Origin: a plasmid
Length of the DNA: 64,000 nt
Sequence record: NZ_LC586267.2
Strand: one strand, 5' to 3'
A program made the position numbers. Numbering within the stretch: the first letter of the stretch is position 1; every line of letters begins with the position of its first letter. This document shows, in pieces, positions 11,082 through 53,000 of this stretch.

Positions 11082-14000
11082 TAAGCTCAGTCGCTGCCCC
11101 GCAAACCCTTGCAACGTCTGGATAGTTTCGAAAAACGACCGTTTTATGAAACCGTTTCCGCTATCGCGAGGAAAGGCCACCAACACCCGAAAAACAGTGC
11201 AATAAACCTTTCTCACGAATCAAAGTTCGTTAATTCGCAGTCGCTGACGAGTAAAACGAACTCTAATTCGGCTTACGTTGGTTTTCAGTTCCATTGCTCC
11301 CCAACCCCCGTGGCCACGCCTTGCGCGGCAATCGGTGGAGTGTCTGATGTCATGCCCAAACCTCGCTTTGGTGCACACGAGTATTGAGCATAGTCGAGAT
11401 TGGTGCAGACGACTCCTGATATTGGGCTGTCAGGAGCCGTATGCACACCAGGCGTTACATCCAGTCAGATGGTGCGGTCGTCTTCTGAAAACGACACGAA
11501 GCCTTGAATTTGTCAGGCTGAAATCTATGACCTTGGCAAGCATGTGTCAAAGAATGTGAAAGCGGACTCTATTCTGACGGCGCGGTGCGGCCTTGCCTGA
11601 CATCCAGTTAGGGTATACCCCATTCGGACACCGACTACACAACCTAAGGGCTTGCAGGCTGTCAGCAGGGCTTATCGTACGATTTTTTCCGTTTTCTCTA
11701 TGCCCCCCGATTTAATGTCGTTCTCGTACAGCTGCAGCAAGTCGTCGCGTGACGGTATGTACATGGGAGGTGATCTCCAGCTGGTTCTTAGCCCTAACGC
11801 ATATATACGTTAGGGCCTCACCGGCAGCAAGTCGCCTCGCCGGCAGCGGCCAGGCGGGGGCAACTGACGCCCTCCGGTTATCAGTCGTCCCCGCCCGGCT
11901 GGGCATCAGCGTCGGGCGGCACTTCCACCAGCTCGCCGGCCTCAAGGAAACGTACGTCGCAGTCCACACAGAGCAGCCGCCCGCTAAGGCCTGGCTTGCC
12001 CCACACGTTCAACTTGCAGCTGGGACAGGTGTACTTGCGCTTGTTCTTCGGATCCTCAGCCGGCGTTGCCGGCTGGATCAGACCCGCAACAGTCAGTGCC
12101 GGTATGTCGATGGTCGGATCCTCGGGCTGGGGTAAAGGCTCCCCACCTGGCCCGTACAGCTGCGTTGCGGACATTGGCACCCGCTGGGTGACGATATCGA
12201 TCCAGGAAATCATGGCGCCGGTTGCGAGTAATTCGTCGCATGCCACATCGAAGGGACCGCCCTCGATGATGTAGTGCGTCATCTGCTGCCCGCACCGGCG
12301 CCCGCCAGGCTCACCCGTGTGCGAAGGCATCAGCCCGATGGCCTCCATTTTGTCGGCCCACTCGCGGTTGTGGTACCCGCCGCGAGACTTCTTCCCGAAG
12401 CAGTCCTGCCACTGGTGCGCCTGTTCATGCACCAGCGTGGACAGCGTTTGCTTGATGCTGCGATGCGCGAAGTAGGCGCAGTTCAGCGCGATTTCATCGC
12501 TCTTACCCGAGCCATTCCGGCGCAGGAAGCGCGATGGCGAGTAATAGCCGAAAGTGTTGGCCTTGCGCTGCAGGGTGAAGATGCAGCCGGGCAGCTGGCC
12601 ACCGTATAACCGATCATTGAACCAGTCGTACGCCCCCTCGATTTCGTCATAGAGCAACTGGCTTGGGGTTGCGGACATGCGGCCTCCATTTCTCGCACGC
12701 GAGAATCCCCCCTGCTGATCACTCGGCGTCAGGGGGGTGAACGTTACAGACATTGTAACCTGTATCGTACGATACAGGTTACACATCAAAAAAAGGGGGC
12801 AAGCCCCCTCACCGTCCTACTAAGTAGGCGACATACACGATGGCGGCGCCAAGCGCCGCACCAATCGATAGCAGAGCTACCGAGTACCCAACCGCCCGGC
12901 GCTCAGCCTGTGCTGTCACCAGGCTGGCCGCACTGCGGTTGATCTCATTCCCAATCCGCGCTGCCGCTTCGCGTCCTGCCTGCACCAGTGCGTTGCGCTG
13001 TTCTTCCATCATCGACTCGAAGTTCAGCTGCGTCTGCAGCAGGACTTTGCCTGCTGCATCGCGTACGGCTTCGGAAGTCTTCGCCGCCAGGTCGGCGTCG
13101 ACCTGTTCCAGGCGCCGCACGATGGCATCAAAGTCCTCCATCATTTGCGCGACCATCGCTTCGCGGGCCGTGGTTGGGTCCTTGGCCATCGATCACTTCC
13201 CCTTGCCGAACAGCGAGGCATATACCTGGTCAAGGTTGCGCGATGCGGACTTGGCCAGGCGCTGCGCGGAGATCATGCGCAGGGCGTGATCCTTTTCGGT
13301 TTCGTCCTTGGCATCGCGCAACTGGGCGCGATAGTCCGTGGAGTCCTCCAGTACCTGCGTGACGTTCATTTTCAGCGGGCGCAGGCGCTCGAAAATTTCG
13401 TTCGCGTACACCACAGCATCGCGCTTGAGGGTGAATTTCTTCTCGACTTCGTGGAAGCCGAACAGCGCCGCGAACGTCTGCGGGATATCGTCGGCATCAT
13501 CGATCTGGACTTTGTTGAAGACGACCAAGATCTTTTTCGCCGGCACGCCGAGCGCGGCCAGGGTCTTGATGGTGTTGATGGTATCGACCTGCTGCTTTTT
13601 CTCCGGCACTGCCGGCACCAGGAAGTAATCGATATCTTCGTGGGAGCCGTCGTACTGGCCCATGAACTTGAAGAAGTCTTCAACGTTGGATGCGCCAACG
13701 TCGACCACAACCTTGTCCTCGGTCAGCAGTACCTCGGACAGTTCGCCAAACTGTTTGCCCTTGAGGCGTTCAATTTCGGCTGCGGTGTCCGACGCACCGG
13801 CGTTGATGGTTTCAATTGCAAACCGCAGACCGCCGATACGGGGCCAAAGCAGGTTATCGGAGAGTGTGGTTTTTCCGGAGTTGCCGGTGAAATTCACGGT
13901 GACGGTTCTCATGTGCGTTTCCTTCTGCTGCGCGCTGCGCTTTCATATCGATCCAAGTCCGAGGCGTTTTGATCGTCCCCGGGATTCATGAGCCTGCTCA

Positions 14001-50000: not shown

Positions 50001-53000
50001 GAGAATGTGCCACGCCTGGCCACCCGTGGTCGCCACCTGCTCGATCAGATCGTCCAGGTGCTGAACTTCTTCGGCTATGCCGTGAATGAGACAACCCACG
50101 ACTGCGGGGAGCTGGGCGGGTTGGCCCAAAGCCGCAAGCGCTTCCTGTTGGTGGCCCGGCACGTCGAGAAGGTGCCGCCGTTCCTCTATGAGCCGGAGAA
50201 AAAGTCCCTGCAATCGGTCGGTGCTGTTCTTGGCCGCATGCCGCTGCCGGGCGATATCGAGCGCGCCGGCCCGATGCACCGCGTTCCTGCACTGCAATGG
50301 AAAACGTGGGTACGCCTTGCCCTGGTCGAGGCCGGTAAGGACTGGCGCAGCCTCGATCAGTTGGCCATCGAAGATGGCTACCTGCGCGACTTTGTGATTG
50401 TGCCGGAAGCATTCTCCGGTTATCTCGGCGTGCGCGGCTGGGGTGATTCAGTGGGCACGGTCGCCGGTCAAACTGGCCCCACCAATGGCGCATTTTCCGT
50501 CGCAGATCCGCGCAGCCCAGCCAGTGCCGCGCAGTACCAACAATATGGCGTACGGCGCTGGGAGGACCCGAGCGGCGCAATCATCGGCATCAAGTCGCCA
50601 GGGCAGGGCACGTTTAGCGTGGCAGATCCGCGTGGTGCAGCTGGTGGCCATGGCAAATACAACGTGACCCGCTGGGATGGTGCCGCACGTACGGTCATTG
50701 CAGGCAGCACGACAGGGCAGGGCGCCTTTGCAGTACAAGACCCACGCCCAGGATTACGGCGAGTGAAAGGCGATGCCTACCTCACCGGGGGGCATTATGG
50801 CGTGGTGCCGTGGGAGGGCCTGGCCGGCGCTGTTTCCGCCAGTGCGCGCTTGGACAATGGCCGGTGGAGCGTGGCAGATCCGCGTATGCCAGCCGCGAAT
50901 GATCGGTTGACCTGCGTGATTCAGAGCCTCGACGGAACCTGGCACCGGCCATTCACCACCCTGGAAATGGCCGCGCTGCAAAGCCTGGTCGACCCGGAGG
51001 AAATGCTTGAGCTGGACGGCTTGAGCGATCAGGCGTGGCGCGAGCGGATCGGTAATGCCGTGCCGCCAAAAGCCGCCGAGGCTATTGCAGGCGTCATGGC
51101 CCAAACCCTCCTGCTGGCAAAGCAGGGCGAAACCTTCTTGCTCAGCCACATGCCGGTGTGGGTACGACCTGTTGCGGTCGGCCTATCGCTGGCCAGCAAC
51201 CTCGACAAGGCAGCATAACGACTGGCGCCCCGCCCGGGCGCCTCACCTTCCCGGTCAAGACGGCGGCAACCGTCCCCGGGAAACCACGCGAAGGAGATAC
51301 ACCATGTTCCGCGATCTCACCATGAGCAAAGCCCAACGTTCCAGCCAGGCCCTGCATACCGCTGCGCGCTTGGCAGAGCATCGGAAGAAGTGGTATTCAG
51401 CCGCCGAGCTGTACGAAGCCGCCGCGTCACTCTGGCCAGGTAAGGGCATCAGTTTGATGCGTCGTGCCGAACAGTGCCGCTCCCTGGTTGTCGATGCCAG
51501 CGATGAAATGGATTTTGAGGATTGAGCCATGGACGAACGAACGGAACAGGAATTGACCGCGTACCTCGATGTGCTGCTGTGGCTGGAGACGGCTTCGGTT
51601 GCCGAGATCGAGGGGGCTTTGTCGGTGGCCACCGCTCCCGCCCGCGAGGATCTGGAGCTGGGTATTCAGTGCCTGATGGACTCGGATCGGCCCGGCCTGG
51701 CCAACTACTTCCCGAACCTGGTAAACCGGCCCACCTCCCTCAATGAGATCCGCCAAAAGTTCTCAGCGATGGCCCAGTCCATGGATCAGTTGGAGGATTC
51801 GTTGCGTCGGCGGCGAACCGATCCGACCTATCCCCTCATGGGTTACGGCGCTGTACTCGGTACATTGGCCAAGCTGCAGTACCTCAACAAAATCACACCG
51901 TCGCAGCGCGAGCTGCTGCTCAGCGAGCTGGCCAGCCTCAAAGGCGGCGGGCTGCGCCTGGACAACTGACGAGGCTCGCCATGAAACGCAAGACCAAACG
52001 GCGCAACTGGCTACCCGTGGTTCTCTGTGCGATTGCCGGTGTAGGTCTTTTGACGGTTGAAATGCTCGCTTCGCGGCATATGCTTCAACGCCGGCTTGAT
52101 CAGAAGTACCAGGAAAAAGTGCGTTATCTGCAGGAGCATCCACCGACCACCACTCGCATCGAAATATTGGTGCCGGATGCTGCATCCTCCATGACGCCGA
52201 AACGCATTGATGAAGCGCTGCATCCGGCTGGACGGACCCAGTAAGGTGCAGTCCTGTGCGTGCCCCCTCCGGGGGGCGGCTGTCGTGAACCAAGCCCCGG
52301 CCAGAAGCACGCCGGGTCTTGGCCCTTCGGGCTTCCATCCTCACGCCTCCGGCCTTCGGCCTGCGCGCTCCGCTTGCCGGTCGTTCCATGGCAACCACTG
52401 CGGCTAGCTCAGCAACCATCGGTAGGAAGCGGACGCCCCAATGGCCTATCCGCCACCAGGCCTTGCCTGCAAGGGGCTTTCGCGGCATATCCTCACTCGC
52501 TGCGCTCCCTGCGGTATTCCACGGTCCCCTTGCACGCGGCCTGGCTCTGGATAGTCCTGGCTTACCGCGTCCTACCGAAGGCTGCCGAGCAGATCCACCC
52601 AGCGGTGGCGCGCTTCCATTCCCAAAGAGCAGGGCGGCATCCGCTTCGCGGCTGCTGCTTTGAAAAGCGTTTGTTTCCCGCGCCCAAACGCCCGGCATTA
52701 AAGCAGCTCGGTAGAGCCGCCAAGCGTACGGCGCAGAAAAAAGCATGATTTCTCGCACGCGAGAATGTGCGACAAGCGGTCAATTTAGATTTGACCAATA
52801 GTTGACTTTGGTTAGGCCCTTTGCGATACTAAACCTGTCGAAGCAATCCCGCTTCGATAGCCTGGAATCCAGCGGCGGCAACCGCTCCAGGGTAGTCGCG
52901 AAGGAGTTTCACACATGAATATCACCGCTCAGGCCCCCGCAGTCAGCGCCCACAATTGGCTCACTACCGGCGACTTTCTGAACTTCGCCAAAAAGATTTG

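What the first reader, a model, noticed from the sequence alone, without database searches (positions are those of the whole stretch)
12690..52765. Backbone-wide 16-bp palindromic operator TTCTCGCATGCGAGAA at 8 sites defines a plasmid regulon
Perfect or one-mismatch copies lie at 12690-12705, 21875-21890, 28046-28061, 33021-33036, 33070-33085, 40580-40595, 45861-45876 and 52750-52765. Six sit at promoter positions: upstream of the SprT-like gene, the kikA-like gene, the VirB7-like lipoprotein inside the virB operon, the divergent virB2/parA intergenic region (two copies), and two CUP-like leading-region promoters. One fills exactly the 16-bp gap between the convergent stop codons of the HTH-repeat gene and umuC. 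This resembles the KorA/KorB/ArdK global operator networks of IncP and IncW plasmids, but with a different sequence. The KorA-like protein at 55415-55728 is a candidate binder.
Basis: seen in the sequence. Interest (0 to 1): 0.75.

Follow-up and report, generated by a model that had tools for sequence, protein, structure and literature searches.

The report
IncP-9 plasmid ParB-binding parS sites

Summary
Eight copies of TTCTCGCATGCGAGAA (0-1 mismatch) lie in the window, against 0.04 expected by chance, and there are no further copies at 2-3 mismatches. One coordinate was off by one base.

The window is an IncP-9 plasmid backbone of the pWW0/NAH7 family. The 16-mer is the core of the 18-bp parS(NAH) site, TTTCTCGCATGCGAGAAA, described by Kishida et al. 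(mBio 2025, PMC12421886). That paper shows NAH7 ParB binding the site by EMSA. It also shows that the par genes stabilise the plasmid and that ParB raises mpfA, mpfE and mpfK transcripts. ParR, the KorA homologue, binds oriT instead.

All eight sites are syntenic in pWW0, seven in NAH7 and at least six in an ~80%-identical plasmid. The core is conserved while the flanks drift. ParB here is 69% identical to NAH7 ParB and carries the GERRxRA CTP motif.

Consensus promoters adjoin only three sites. Two sites are intercistronic, one lies in a 5'UTR and one sits between convergent stop codons.

Verdict: real, functional and already known.

Noticed in passing: parB and korA2 are frameshifted in this window, probably among many assembly indels.

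The parts
12690..12705 (.). parS copy (1 mismatch, CACG centre). It lies 2 nt upstream of the Shine-Dalgarno sequence of the SprT/ArdC-like gene (11881-12678, minus strand) and downstream of a terminator at 12810-12793. It is syntenic with NAH7 18069 (the paper's parS4 by my mapping).
21875..21890 (.). parS copy (1 mismatch). It is intercistronic, between the stop codon of the lytic transglycosylase gene (21892-22869, minus) and the AAGGAG Shine-Dalgarno sequence of mpfK/kikA (21528-21863, minus). It corresponds to NAH7 parS5, the EMSA probe.
28046..28061 (.). parS copy (perfect). It abuts the TGA of the VirB5-like gene (28062-28754, minus) and the GGAGA Shine-Dalgarno sequence of mpfE, a 70-aa lipoprotein gene (27823-28035, minus). 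It corresponds to NAH7 parS6.
33021..33036 (.). parS copy (perfect; a full 18-mer match at 33020-33037). This is the distal copy in the mpfR/mpfA-parA divergent region. It is present in pWW0. NAH7 and YY7 have only one copy in this region.
33069..33084 (.). parS copy (1 mismatch, TTCC). It lies 24 nt upstream of the parA -35 box and corresponds to NAH7 parS1.
40580..40595 (.). parS copy (1 mismatch). It exactly fills the gap between the convergent stop codons of 39830-40579 (+) and umuC/rulB-like 40596-41879 (minus). No promoter is nearby.
45861..45876 (.). parS copy (perfect). It lies in the divergent region between the relE/parE-like toxin-antitoxin operon (45520-45822, minus) and the first CUP-like promoter module driving DUF4942 (46025-46804).
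52750..52765 (.). parS copy (1 mismatch). It lies 25 nt upstream of the direct-repeat -35 region of the fourth CUP-like promoter module. It is syntenic with NAH7 12613, which has 3 mismatches to the 18-mer and was probably not counted among the paper's six sites.
33187..33870 (+). parA, a Walker-type partition ATPase. The likely start is the ATG at 33187, preceded by AGGAAGG.
33965..34918 (+). parB, the inferred binder of the palindrome. It has a ParB_N domain with the GERRYRA motif. Residues 1-236 are 69% identical to NAH7 ParB. In this window a 7-bp deletion after 34647 frameshifts the C-terminal ~85 aa.
34899..35249 (+). parR, the KorA/TrfB homologue (PF16509). In NAH7 it binds oriT, not parS.
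35246..35653 (+). parC, a conserved IncP-9 gene of unknown role.
33090..33137 (+). parA promoter region: inverted repeat AGTAAACCC (33090-33098) / GGGTTTACT (33118-33126) flanking the -35 TTGACT (33109-33114), and a putative -10 AAGCAT (33132-33137). The inverted repeat is invariant in four plasmids and is a candidate ParR/KorA operator (inference).
   Evidence: PMC9723621
45912..45940 (+). Sigma-70-like promoter (TTGACG-17-GATACT, TG-extended) of CUP-like module 1.
52802..52830 (+). Sigma-70-like promoter (TTGACT-17-GATACT, TG-extended) of CUP-like module 4.
It is frameshifted here by a 1-nt deletion in the C-run at about 55655-55659. It is not supported as the binder of the palindrome.

Best explanation
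The eight palindromes are the parS centromere sites of an IncP-9 plasmid.

Proposed mechanism:
- Dimers of the plasmid's ParB (33965-34918) recognise the two TTCTCGC arms. The central two bases are free to vary.
- Together with the ParA ATPase, and with a contribution from ParR, the ParB-parS complexes segregate the plasmid at cell division.
- The sites are scattered over the whole backbone: upstream of the par operon, between and in front of T4SS genes, in the leading region, and next to umuC. ParB loaded at them therefore also changes transcription of neighbouring genes. In NAH7, ParB raised mpfA, mpfE and mpfK mRNA.

Basis of each step:
- Shown here: the identity of the sequence, its synteny and conservation, the ParB orthologue, and the CTP-binding motif.
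- Shown elsewhere, for NAH7: ParB-parS binding, the role in stability, and the transcript increase.
- Inferred: that this plasmid's ParB behaves the same way. Also inferred is that it acts as a CTP-dependent clamp that loads at parS and spreads, as chromosomal ParB and KorB do.
For: - Exact match to the published parS. The 16-mer is the core of the 18-bp parS1(NAH) TTTCTCGCATGCGAGAAA, and ParB-His shifts a parS5 probe in the presence of excess non-specific DNA (PMC12421886).
- The window is IncP-9. It is 99.9% identical to NZ_CP046873 and 84% to pWW0.
- Synteny. pWW0 has the same 8 sites, NAH7 has 7, and the ~80%-identical YY7 plasmid has at least 6, all in the same gene contexts.
- Footprint. 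88-100% of core positions are invariant at six of the seven aligned sites (the parA value is a script artefact, see tried and rejected), against 21-56% of flank positions at those sites.
- The parA-parB-parR-parC operon lies next to two sites. ParB is 69% identical to NAH7 ParB and has a ParB_N domain with GERRYRA. Its closest solved relatives are Spo0J/ParB/Noc-family proteins (several named in their entries as nucleotide-bound forms, from memory), with KorB more distant.
- The palindrome travels with parAB far outside IncP-9. It is found next to ParB homologues of 41-50% identity in Nitrosospira, Chromobacterium and Burkholderiaceae. One of these has three copies 84 nt apart just after parB. 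ParB residues 1-235 are conserved while the C-termini are unrelated.
- 8 of 8 sites are non-coding, P ~ 2.7e-7.
Against: - No binding or stability experiment exists for this plasmid.
- The window's parB carries a 7-bp deletion that would remove the C-terminal (presumed dimerisation) region. If the deletion is real, the system could be impaired in this plasmid.
- The reported activation was measured in E. coli with over-expressed ParB. It fits poorly with sites that lie inside transcription units (a 5'UTR, intercistronic gaps) or between convergent genes. The sign and mechanism of any regulation in Pseudomonas are therefore open.
- CTP dependence has not been tested for any IncP-9 ParB.
Confidence: 0.9

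Rival explanations
1. The palindrome is the operator of a KorA-family repressor, either KorA2/ArdK-like at 55415-55728 or ParR at 34899-35249. That repressor would control a plasmid-wide regulon.
For: Two KorA-family genes are present (for ParR, with PF16509 at E = 5.5e-9; for korA2). KorA-type repressors do run global circuits in IncP-1 and IncW plasmids (established knowledge; PMC9723621).
Against: - In NAH7, ParR footprints on oriT and does not change mpf transcripts. ParB is the protein that shifts the parS probe.
- PMC9723621 reports that IncP-9 ArdK-like proteins have direct repeats at the -35 box and that KorA homologues have inverted repeats near the -10 box.
- Such candidate elements exist here and differ from the palindrome. 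TTGACC-N5-TTGAC occurs in all five CUP-like modules, of which only two carry the palindrome. GTAAACCC/GGGTTTAC flanks the parA -35 box.
- The Burkholderiaceae locus L013 has the palindrome with parAB and no KorA homologue in the 1.5 kb downstream.
Confidence: 0.04
2. The palindrome acts at the RNA level. It would form a hairpin in 5'UTRs and intercistronic gaps that stabilises mRNA, modulates translation of the next gene, or terminates transcription.
For: Three copies lie 0-2 nt from a Shine-Dalgarno sequence and two of those three also lie 0-1 nt after a stop codon. The consensus scan flags the 28046 copy and a stem overlapping the 52750 copy as terminator-like.
Against: - The hairpin is weak, at -5.3 kcal/mol. 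In its native contexts it folds no better than shuffled sequences, with z-scores from -1.25 to +0.93.
- There is no consistent U-tract.
- Copies also lie upstream of promoters and between convergent stop codons, and they work as DNA in EMSA.
- The terminator-like hit at 28046 is on the non-transcribed (+) strand of a minus-strand operon.
Confidence: 0.03
3. The sites are chance or selfish short repeats (REP/MITE-like), or restriction/methylation targets (GCATGC = SphI), with no protein-specific role.
For: Perfect copies contain GCATGC, and the plasmid encodes a DNA cytosine methyltransferase (49527-51218).
Against: - The central bases, which form the SphI core, are the ones that vary (CACG, CGTG). 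The arms are invariant.
- Chance expectation is 0.04.
- The positions are syntenic across plasmids that have diverged by about 20%.
Confidence: 0.01

Closest known systems
parS(NAH)/ParB of IncP-9 plasmid NAH7 (Kishida et al., mBio 2025, PMC12421886)
   Same: The 16-bp core is identical and the gene contexts are the same (upstream of parA, mpfK, mpfE and sprT, next to umuC, and next to relE). The parA-parB-parR-parC operon is orthologous, with ParB 69% identical.
   Different: - This pWW0-type backbone has two copies in the parA/mpf intergenic region, where NAH7 has one.
- The leading-region copy (52750, equivalent to NAH7 12613) falls outside the paper's criterion of at most 2 mismatches to the 18-mer, so the paper counts six sites where the core motif gives seven.
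- parB is frameshifted in this window.
KorB / O_B operator network of IncP-1 plasmids RK2/RP4, with KorA as partner
   Same: A ParB-family protein doubles as a centromere binder and a transcription modulator. Palindromic sites are dispersed over the backbone, both promoter-proximal and distal. A KorA-family gene is adjacent in the same operon.
   Different: - The site sequence and length are different.
- ParB here is closer to chromosomal Spo0J/ParB (E = 2e-16) than to KorB (E = 3e-6), and there is no Pfam KorB-domain hit.
- The reported effect in NAH7 is activation, whereas KorB represses.
- ParR binds oriT rather than a promoter operator next to parS.
Chromosomal ParABS (Spo0J/ParB-CTP sliding clamp on 16-bp parS)
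   Same: It has a ParB_N domain with the GERRxRA motif, a 16-bp perfect-palindrome site, several sites per replicon, and a Walker-type ParA partner.
   Different: The parS sequence differs (chromosomal consensus TGTTNCACGTGAAACA, from established knowledge). The C-terminal domain is unrelated. The sites are placed tightly against gene starts and stops on a plasmid.
ArdK/KorA regulatory network and CUP-type repeated promoters of IncW/IncN leading regions
   Same: The leading region carries five copies of a ~150-nt promoter module with direct repeats at the -35 box, and an ArdK-like gene (korA2) is encoded downstream.
   Different: The palindrome is a separate element. Only two of the five modules have it, and it also occurs in non-promoter contexts.

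Membership tests
IncP-9 parS(NAH)/ParB partition-and-conjugation system | Site sequence: the TTCTCGCATGCGAGAA core of the 18-bp TTTCTCGCATGCGAGAAA | tested here: met
   8 copies with at most 1 mismatch in the core, and 33020-33037 is a perfect 18-mer. One search gives the published sequence.
IncP-9 parS(NAH)/ParB partition-and-conjugation system | Sites confined to the IncP-9 backbone, in intergenic positions syntenic with NAH7 parS1-6 | tested here: met
IncP-9 parS(NAH)/ParB partition-and-conjugation system | Orthologous parA-parB-parR-parC operon adjacent to a site | tested here: met
   Caveat: parB is frameshifted in this window.
IncP-9 parS(NAH)/ParB partition-and-conjugation system | ParB binds the site specifically; the par genes are needed for stability; ParB raises mpf transcripts | not testable with these tools
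   Shown only for NAH7 in PMC12421886.
IncP-1 KorB/O_B global regulatory network | O_B operator sequence (TTTAGCSGCTAAA, from established knowledge) | tested here: not met
   The sequence read directly is different. PMC12421886 also states that the lengths and sequences differ.
IncP-1 KorB/O_B global regulatory network | KorB-type DNA-binding protein | tested here: inconclusive
   Only ParB_N is hit in Pfam. KorB 8qa8 matches at E = 3e-6, which is weaker than Spo0J at 2e-16.
IncP-1 KorB/O_B global regulatory network | Multiple dispersed sites, plus an adjacent KorA-family partner gene | tested here: met
   (8 sites over 40 kb). (ParR matches PF16509, E = 5.5e-9).
IncP-1 KorB/O_B global regulatory network | Transcriptional repression, cooperative with KorA/TrbA | not testable with these tools
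   NAH7 data report activation by ParB and no transcriptional effect of ParR.
CTP-dependent ParB clamp family | ParB_N domain with the GERRxRA nucleotide-binding motif | tested here: met
   Searches (VAGERRYRA; PF02195), and (MVAGERR is invariant in distant homologues).
CTP-dependent ParB clamp family | CTP binding or hydrolysis, and sliding from parS | not testable with these tools
   No biochemical data for IncP-9 ParB were found. The Kishida paper contains no mention of CTP.
   The palindrome lies 24-25 nt upstream of the -35 box, in 5'UTRs, in intercistronic gaps, or between convergent stop codons. Separate direct-repeat and inverted-repeat elements fit the KorA-family description better.

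The most novel reading that the evidence does not exclude
IncP-9 ParB may be a CTP-gated sliding clamp that loads at the eight parS sites and spreads along the backbone. The adjacent KorA homologue ParR would capture or modulate it, as KorA does for KorB in RK2. The striking placement of parS flush against stop codons and Shine-Dalgarno sequences would then make ParB occupancy a direct, cell-cycle-linked control on transcription through the T4SS and leading-region operons. The sign of that control (activation in E. coli, possibly silencing in Pseudomonas) would depend on ParR and on context. The same parS/ParB pair is shared with elements in Nitrosospira, Chromobacterium and Burkholderiaceae, which could create cross-talk or incompatibility between unrelated replicons.
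Probability: 0.3. Interest if true: 0.5.

Novelty: already known. Interest (0 to 1): 0.2.

Why it matters
The finding shows that a tool-free reading can recover a genuine plasmid-wide protein-binding network. The network itself (parS/ParB of IncP-9, linking partition to conjugation) was published in 2025, so this window adds little.

The small additions are these:
- pWW0-type backbones carry eight sites, with two at the par/mpf divergent region.
- One leading-region site escapes the published 18-mer criterion.
- The sites show a conserved 24-25 nt spacing to -35 boxes at three promoters. Elsewhere they are wedged exactly between stop codons and ribosome-binding sites.

This geometry is relevant to the unresolved question of how ParB could activate rather than repress transcription.

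Tried and rejected
- RNA-hairpin or terminator reading. Folding gives -5.3 kcal/mol, and in context the hairpin is no better than shuffles. Rejected.
- KorA-family binder. Rejected on the published ParR data and on the separate direct-repeat and inverted-repeat elements.
- SphI or methylation target. Rejected because the central bases vary.
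- Consensus promoter scans at the parA, sprT, mpfK, mpfE and umuC sites found nothing. At parA, only a weaker TTGACT-17-AAGCAT match can be read by eye.
- Literature searches for an earlier description of the sites in pWW0/IncP-9 papers found none. Sevastsyanovich 2008 has no mention, the MpfR search was uninformative, and Greated 2002 is not in the library.
I estimate that 100-300 matches are expected by chance in 596 Gb, so many hits are chance matches in unrelated phyla. Only the hits next to parAB or T4SS genes were used.
- The core-invariance value for the parA group (0.12) is an artefact. The script anchored on the first of the two window copies. The alignment itself shows the proximal copy conserved.

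Full report
**Observation**

A scan for TTCTCGCATGCGAGAA allowing two mismatches finds exactly eight copies, at 12690, 21875, 28046, 33021, 33069, 40580, 45861 and 52750. Three are perfect and five have one mismatch. Dinucleotide-preserving shuffles give 0.04 copies on average, and none of 100 shuffles reaches eight. Relaxing to three mismatches adds nothing, so the family is sharply bounded. Four of the five mismatches are in the central CATG (CACG or CGTG), and one is at position 4. The arms are otherwise invariant.

**What the window is**

Megablast of 27-47 kb against PLSDB gives 99.9% identity to a 103-kb Pseudomonas putida plasmid (NZ_CP046873). It also gives 84-92% identity to IncP-9 plasmids, including the TOL plasmid pWW0. 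The annotation of the relative shows the standard IncP-9 backbone:
- stbA/B-like genes, oriT, a MOBF relaxase and a VirB-type mpf operon;
- parA-parB-parR(korA)-parC, res, oriV/rep and umuDC;
- a relE-type toxin-antitoxin pair and a long leading region.

The backbone spans about 11.8-57.3 kb of the window. All eight sites are inside it.

**What the palindrome is**

A full-text search for the exact 16-mer finds one paper: Kishida et al., mBio 2025 (PMC12421886). It defines an 18-bp inverted repeat, TTTCTCGCATGCGAGAAA, as parS1 of the IncP-9 plasmid NAH7. It finds five more copies in the backbone, all intergenic. It reports the following results:
- His-tagged ParB shifts a parS5 probe in the presence of excess non-specific DNA.
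- parA, parB and parR are needed for stability of a mini-replicon.
- In E. coli, ParB raises mpfA, mpfE and mpfK transcripts.
- ParR, the KorA homologue, does not affect those transcripts but footprints broadly on oriT.

The paper also reports perfect copies in 120 plasmids and 38 chromosomes of Pseudomonas, Xanthomonas, Burkholderia and Ralstonia.

**Independent checks made here**

- Synteny. NAH7 has seven copies of the 16-bp core at up to 1 mismatch. pWW0 has eight, including the pair upstream of parA. A P. psychrotolerans plasmid about 80% identical has at least six in the stretch fetched. Every copy is in the same gene context as in the window.
- Phylogenetic footprint. In per-site alignments, 88-100% of core positions are invariant at six of the seven aligned sites. 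The parA value from the script is an artefact, and that alignment itself shows the proximal copy conserved. Only 21-56% of positions in the 60-nt flanks of those six sites are invariant.
- Non-coding enrichment. 15% of the pWW0 backbone is non-coding, yet all eight copies are, giving P ~ 2.7e-7.
- The binder is encoded next door. ParB (33965-34918) has a ParB_N domain and the VAGERRYRA nucleotide-binding motif. It is 69% identical to NAH7 ParB. Its closest solved relatives are Spo0J/ParB/Noc-family proteins, with E down to 2e-16. KorB is more distant, at 3e-6.
- Co-travel with parAB. A scan of GTDB genomes for the exact 16-mer returned 120 loci. Many are expected chance hits. Ten of them carry ParA and ParB homologues beside the site. 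These include Nitrosospira, Chromobacterium (three copies 84 nt apart immediately after parB) and a Burkholderiaceae MAG, where ParB is only 41-50% identical. In these proteins residues 1-235 are conserved and the C-termini are unrelated. This fits a specificity determinant in the N-terminal and middle domains.

**Anatomy of the eight contexts**

- The two copies at 33021 and 33069 lie between the mpfR-like/virB2 operon and parA. The proximal one ends 24 nt before the parA -35 box (TTGACT, 33109-33114). That box is bracketed by an invariant inverted repeat, AGTAAACCC/GGGTTTACT.
- The copies at 45861 and 52750 end 24-25 nt before the first TTGAC of a repeated promoter module. That module is present five times (45879, 46814, 49097, 52769, 53938). 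It has TTGACC-N5-TTGAC direct repeats at the -35 box, a TG-extended GATACT -10 box, and structured 5'UTRs.
- The copy at 45861 also lies just upstream of a plausible relE-operon promoter on the other strand. This was read by eye.
- The copy at 12690 lies after an intrinsic terminator (12810-12793), 2 nt from the Shine-Dalgarno sequence of the SprT/ArdC-like gene. It is therefore in a 5'UTR.
- The copies at 21875 and 28046 are intercistronic. They are wedged between the stop codon of one mpf gene and the Shine-Dalgarno sequence of the next (mpfK/kikA, and the lipoprotein gene mpfE). No consensus promoter lies in the 300-400 nt upstream.
- The copy at 40580 exactly fills the gap between two convergent stop codons, with no promoter nearby. 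The abutment to the umuC stop codon is conserved in pWW0 and YY7.

The sites are thus placed wherever 16 non-coding bases can be fitted. This suits a dispersed centromere or loading site better than a classical operator.

**Mechanism**

The best-supported reading has three steps.
- ParB dimers bind the palindrome.
- With ParA, and with a contribution from ParR, they partition the plasmid.
- ParB bound or loaded at the dispersed sites also influences transcription of neighbouring conjugation and leading-region genes.

Binding, the stability role and the transcript increase are shown for NAH7 only. Extension to this plasmid is by orthology.

One further step is inference: that ParB is a CTP-gated clamp spreading from parS, as in chromosomal ParB and in KorB (McLean et al., cited in the Kishida reference list). 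It rests on the GERRxRA motif and the structural relatives.

The sign of regulation is uncertain. Activation was seen with over-expression in E. coli. Several sites lie inside transcription units, where a bound protein would more naturally hinder than help transcription.

**Rivals**

The first is the NAH7 ParR data. The second is the report that IncP-9 ArdK-like and KorA-like proteins use direct repeats at the -35 box and inverted repeats at the -10 box respectively (PMC9723621). The third is the presence here of exactly such separate elements.
- An RNA hairpin role is not supported. The fold is weak (-5.3 kcal/mol) and no better than shuffles in context.
- A restriction or methylation target is excluded by the variable centre.

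**Comparison and novelty**

It is not a member of that family. The site sequence differs, and ParB is closer to chromosomal ParB than to KorB. It is a member of the published parS(NAH)/ParB system, so the finding is already known.

Minor additions:
- pWW0-type backbones have eight sites.
- The leading-region copy (NAH7 12613, window 52750) has three mismatches to the 18-mer. It was probably outside the paper's count of six.
- The geometry relative to promoters, stop codons and ribosome-binding sites is conserved.

**Caveat specific to this window**

Compared with NZ_CP046873 and every other near-identical PLSDB plasmid, parB here lacks 7 bp (CCGCCAG, after 34647). This frameshifts the last ~85 residues. 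korA2 lacks one C in a C-run.

Over about 38 kb the window differs from NZ_CP046873 by 11 small indels. Six are missing bases in the window at single-base runs, such as -C, -CCCC, -CC, -G and -T. These hit virB10, virB4 and the relaxase gene among others. Three are the reverse, where the relative lacks a base (33327, 36823, 40805). This pattern looks like long-read assembly error rather than biology, but the 7-bp deletion is not of that type and should be checked.

Noticed in passing
window 34640-34655 (parB, 33965-34918): parB has a 7-bp deletion (CCGCCAG) relative to NZ_CP046873 and all 10 other PLSDB relatives. It frameshifts ParB after about residue 229 and replaces the C-terminal coiled-coil/dimerisation region with an out-of-frame tail. 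The intact C-terminus is still readable in another frame.
   Followed up: yes
window 55650-55666 (korA2/ArdK-like gene, 55415-55728): A 1-nt deletion in a C-run splits the TrfB-related gene across two frames. The 12 relatives listed (of 24 matching records) all span 402 bases or more where the window has 401.
   Followed up: yes
window 16934, 24435, 25105, 28045, 29334, 43587, 47164 and others: There are many further 1-4 nt indels versus NZ_CP046873, mostly in homopolymer runs. They break virB10, virB4 and the 5' end of the MOBF relaxase gene. The relative has indels of its own (at window 33327, 36823 and 40805). The pattern suggests long-read assembly errors in both records.
   Followed up: partly
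window 45879-46030, 46814-46968, 49097-49251, 52769-52923, 53938-54092: Five copies of a ~150-nt leading-region promoter module. Each has TTGACC-N5-TTGAC direct repeats at the -35 box, a TG-extended GATACT -10 box, the inverted repeat GTCGAAGC..GCTTCGAC, a GC-rich hairpin (CCAGCGGCGGCAACCGCTCC, also at 47672 and 47955) and a GAAGGAG Shine-Dalgarno sequence. The direct repeats are a likely operator for the ArdK-like KorA2.
   Followed up: partly
window 12754-12783: A perfect 30-bp palindrome, TGTAACCTGTATCGTACGATACAGGTTACA, lies between the terminator at 12810-12793 and the sprT/ardC-like gene. The central GTATCGTACGATACAGG is also conserved in pWW0 and NAH7. It may be the operator of another, unidentified regulator.
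   Followed up: no
window 33090-33098 and 33118-33126: The inverted repeat AGTAAACCC / GGGTTTACT brackets the parA -35 box and is invariant in the window, pWW0, NAH7 and YY7. It is a candidate ParR (KorA-homologue) operator for par-operon autoregulation.
   Followed up: partly
window 14518-14641: A perfect tandem duplication of a 62-nt unit lies in the oriT region, between the stbA-like gene and the first tra gene. NZ_CP046873 has a single copy. ParR is reported to bind the oriT region broadly in NAH7.
   Followed up: partly
window 43879-44178, 52263-52562 and 56795-56907: There are 300 nt of 100% identical direct repeat. The repeat extends to about 450 nt at 99% when compared with the relative. 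A third, partial copy is 96% identical. Copy two ends about 45 nt before the parS at 52750. The nature of the repeat (small mobile element or duplicated gene fragment) was not determined.
   Followed up: no
window 11790-11819 and 57250-57279: Two copies of a ~24-bp palindrome, CCCTAACGCATATAT(G/A)CGTTAGGG, lie at the two edges of the backbone where it meets accessory DNA. They may be the halves of a region split by insertion of the accessory segment.
   Followed up: no
window 36765-36916: Three 24-nt repeats (TCYATGASCTACCCCTAGCTCATT), spaced 63-65 nt apart, lie upstream of the HTH/rep gene at 37003-37560. They are likely oriV iterons.
   Followed up: no
L071 6590-6773 (Chromobacterium fluminis contig), L025 1585-1663 (Nitrosospira multiformis): The identical 16-mer occurs in tandem clusters (three copies 84 nt apart; two copies 63 nt apart) immediately downstream of distant parB homologues (45-50% identity) in Betaproteobacteria. 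This is a classical centromere arrangement using the same parS.
   Followed up: partly
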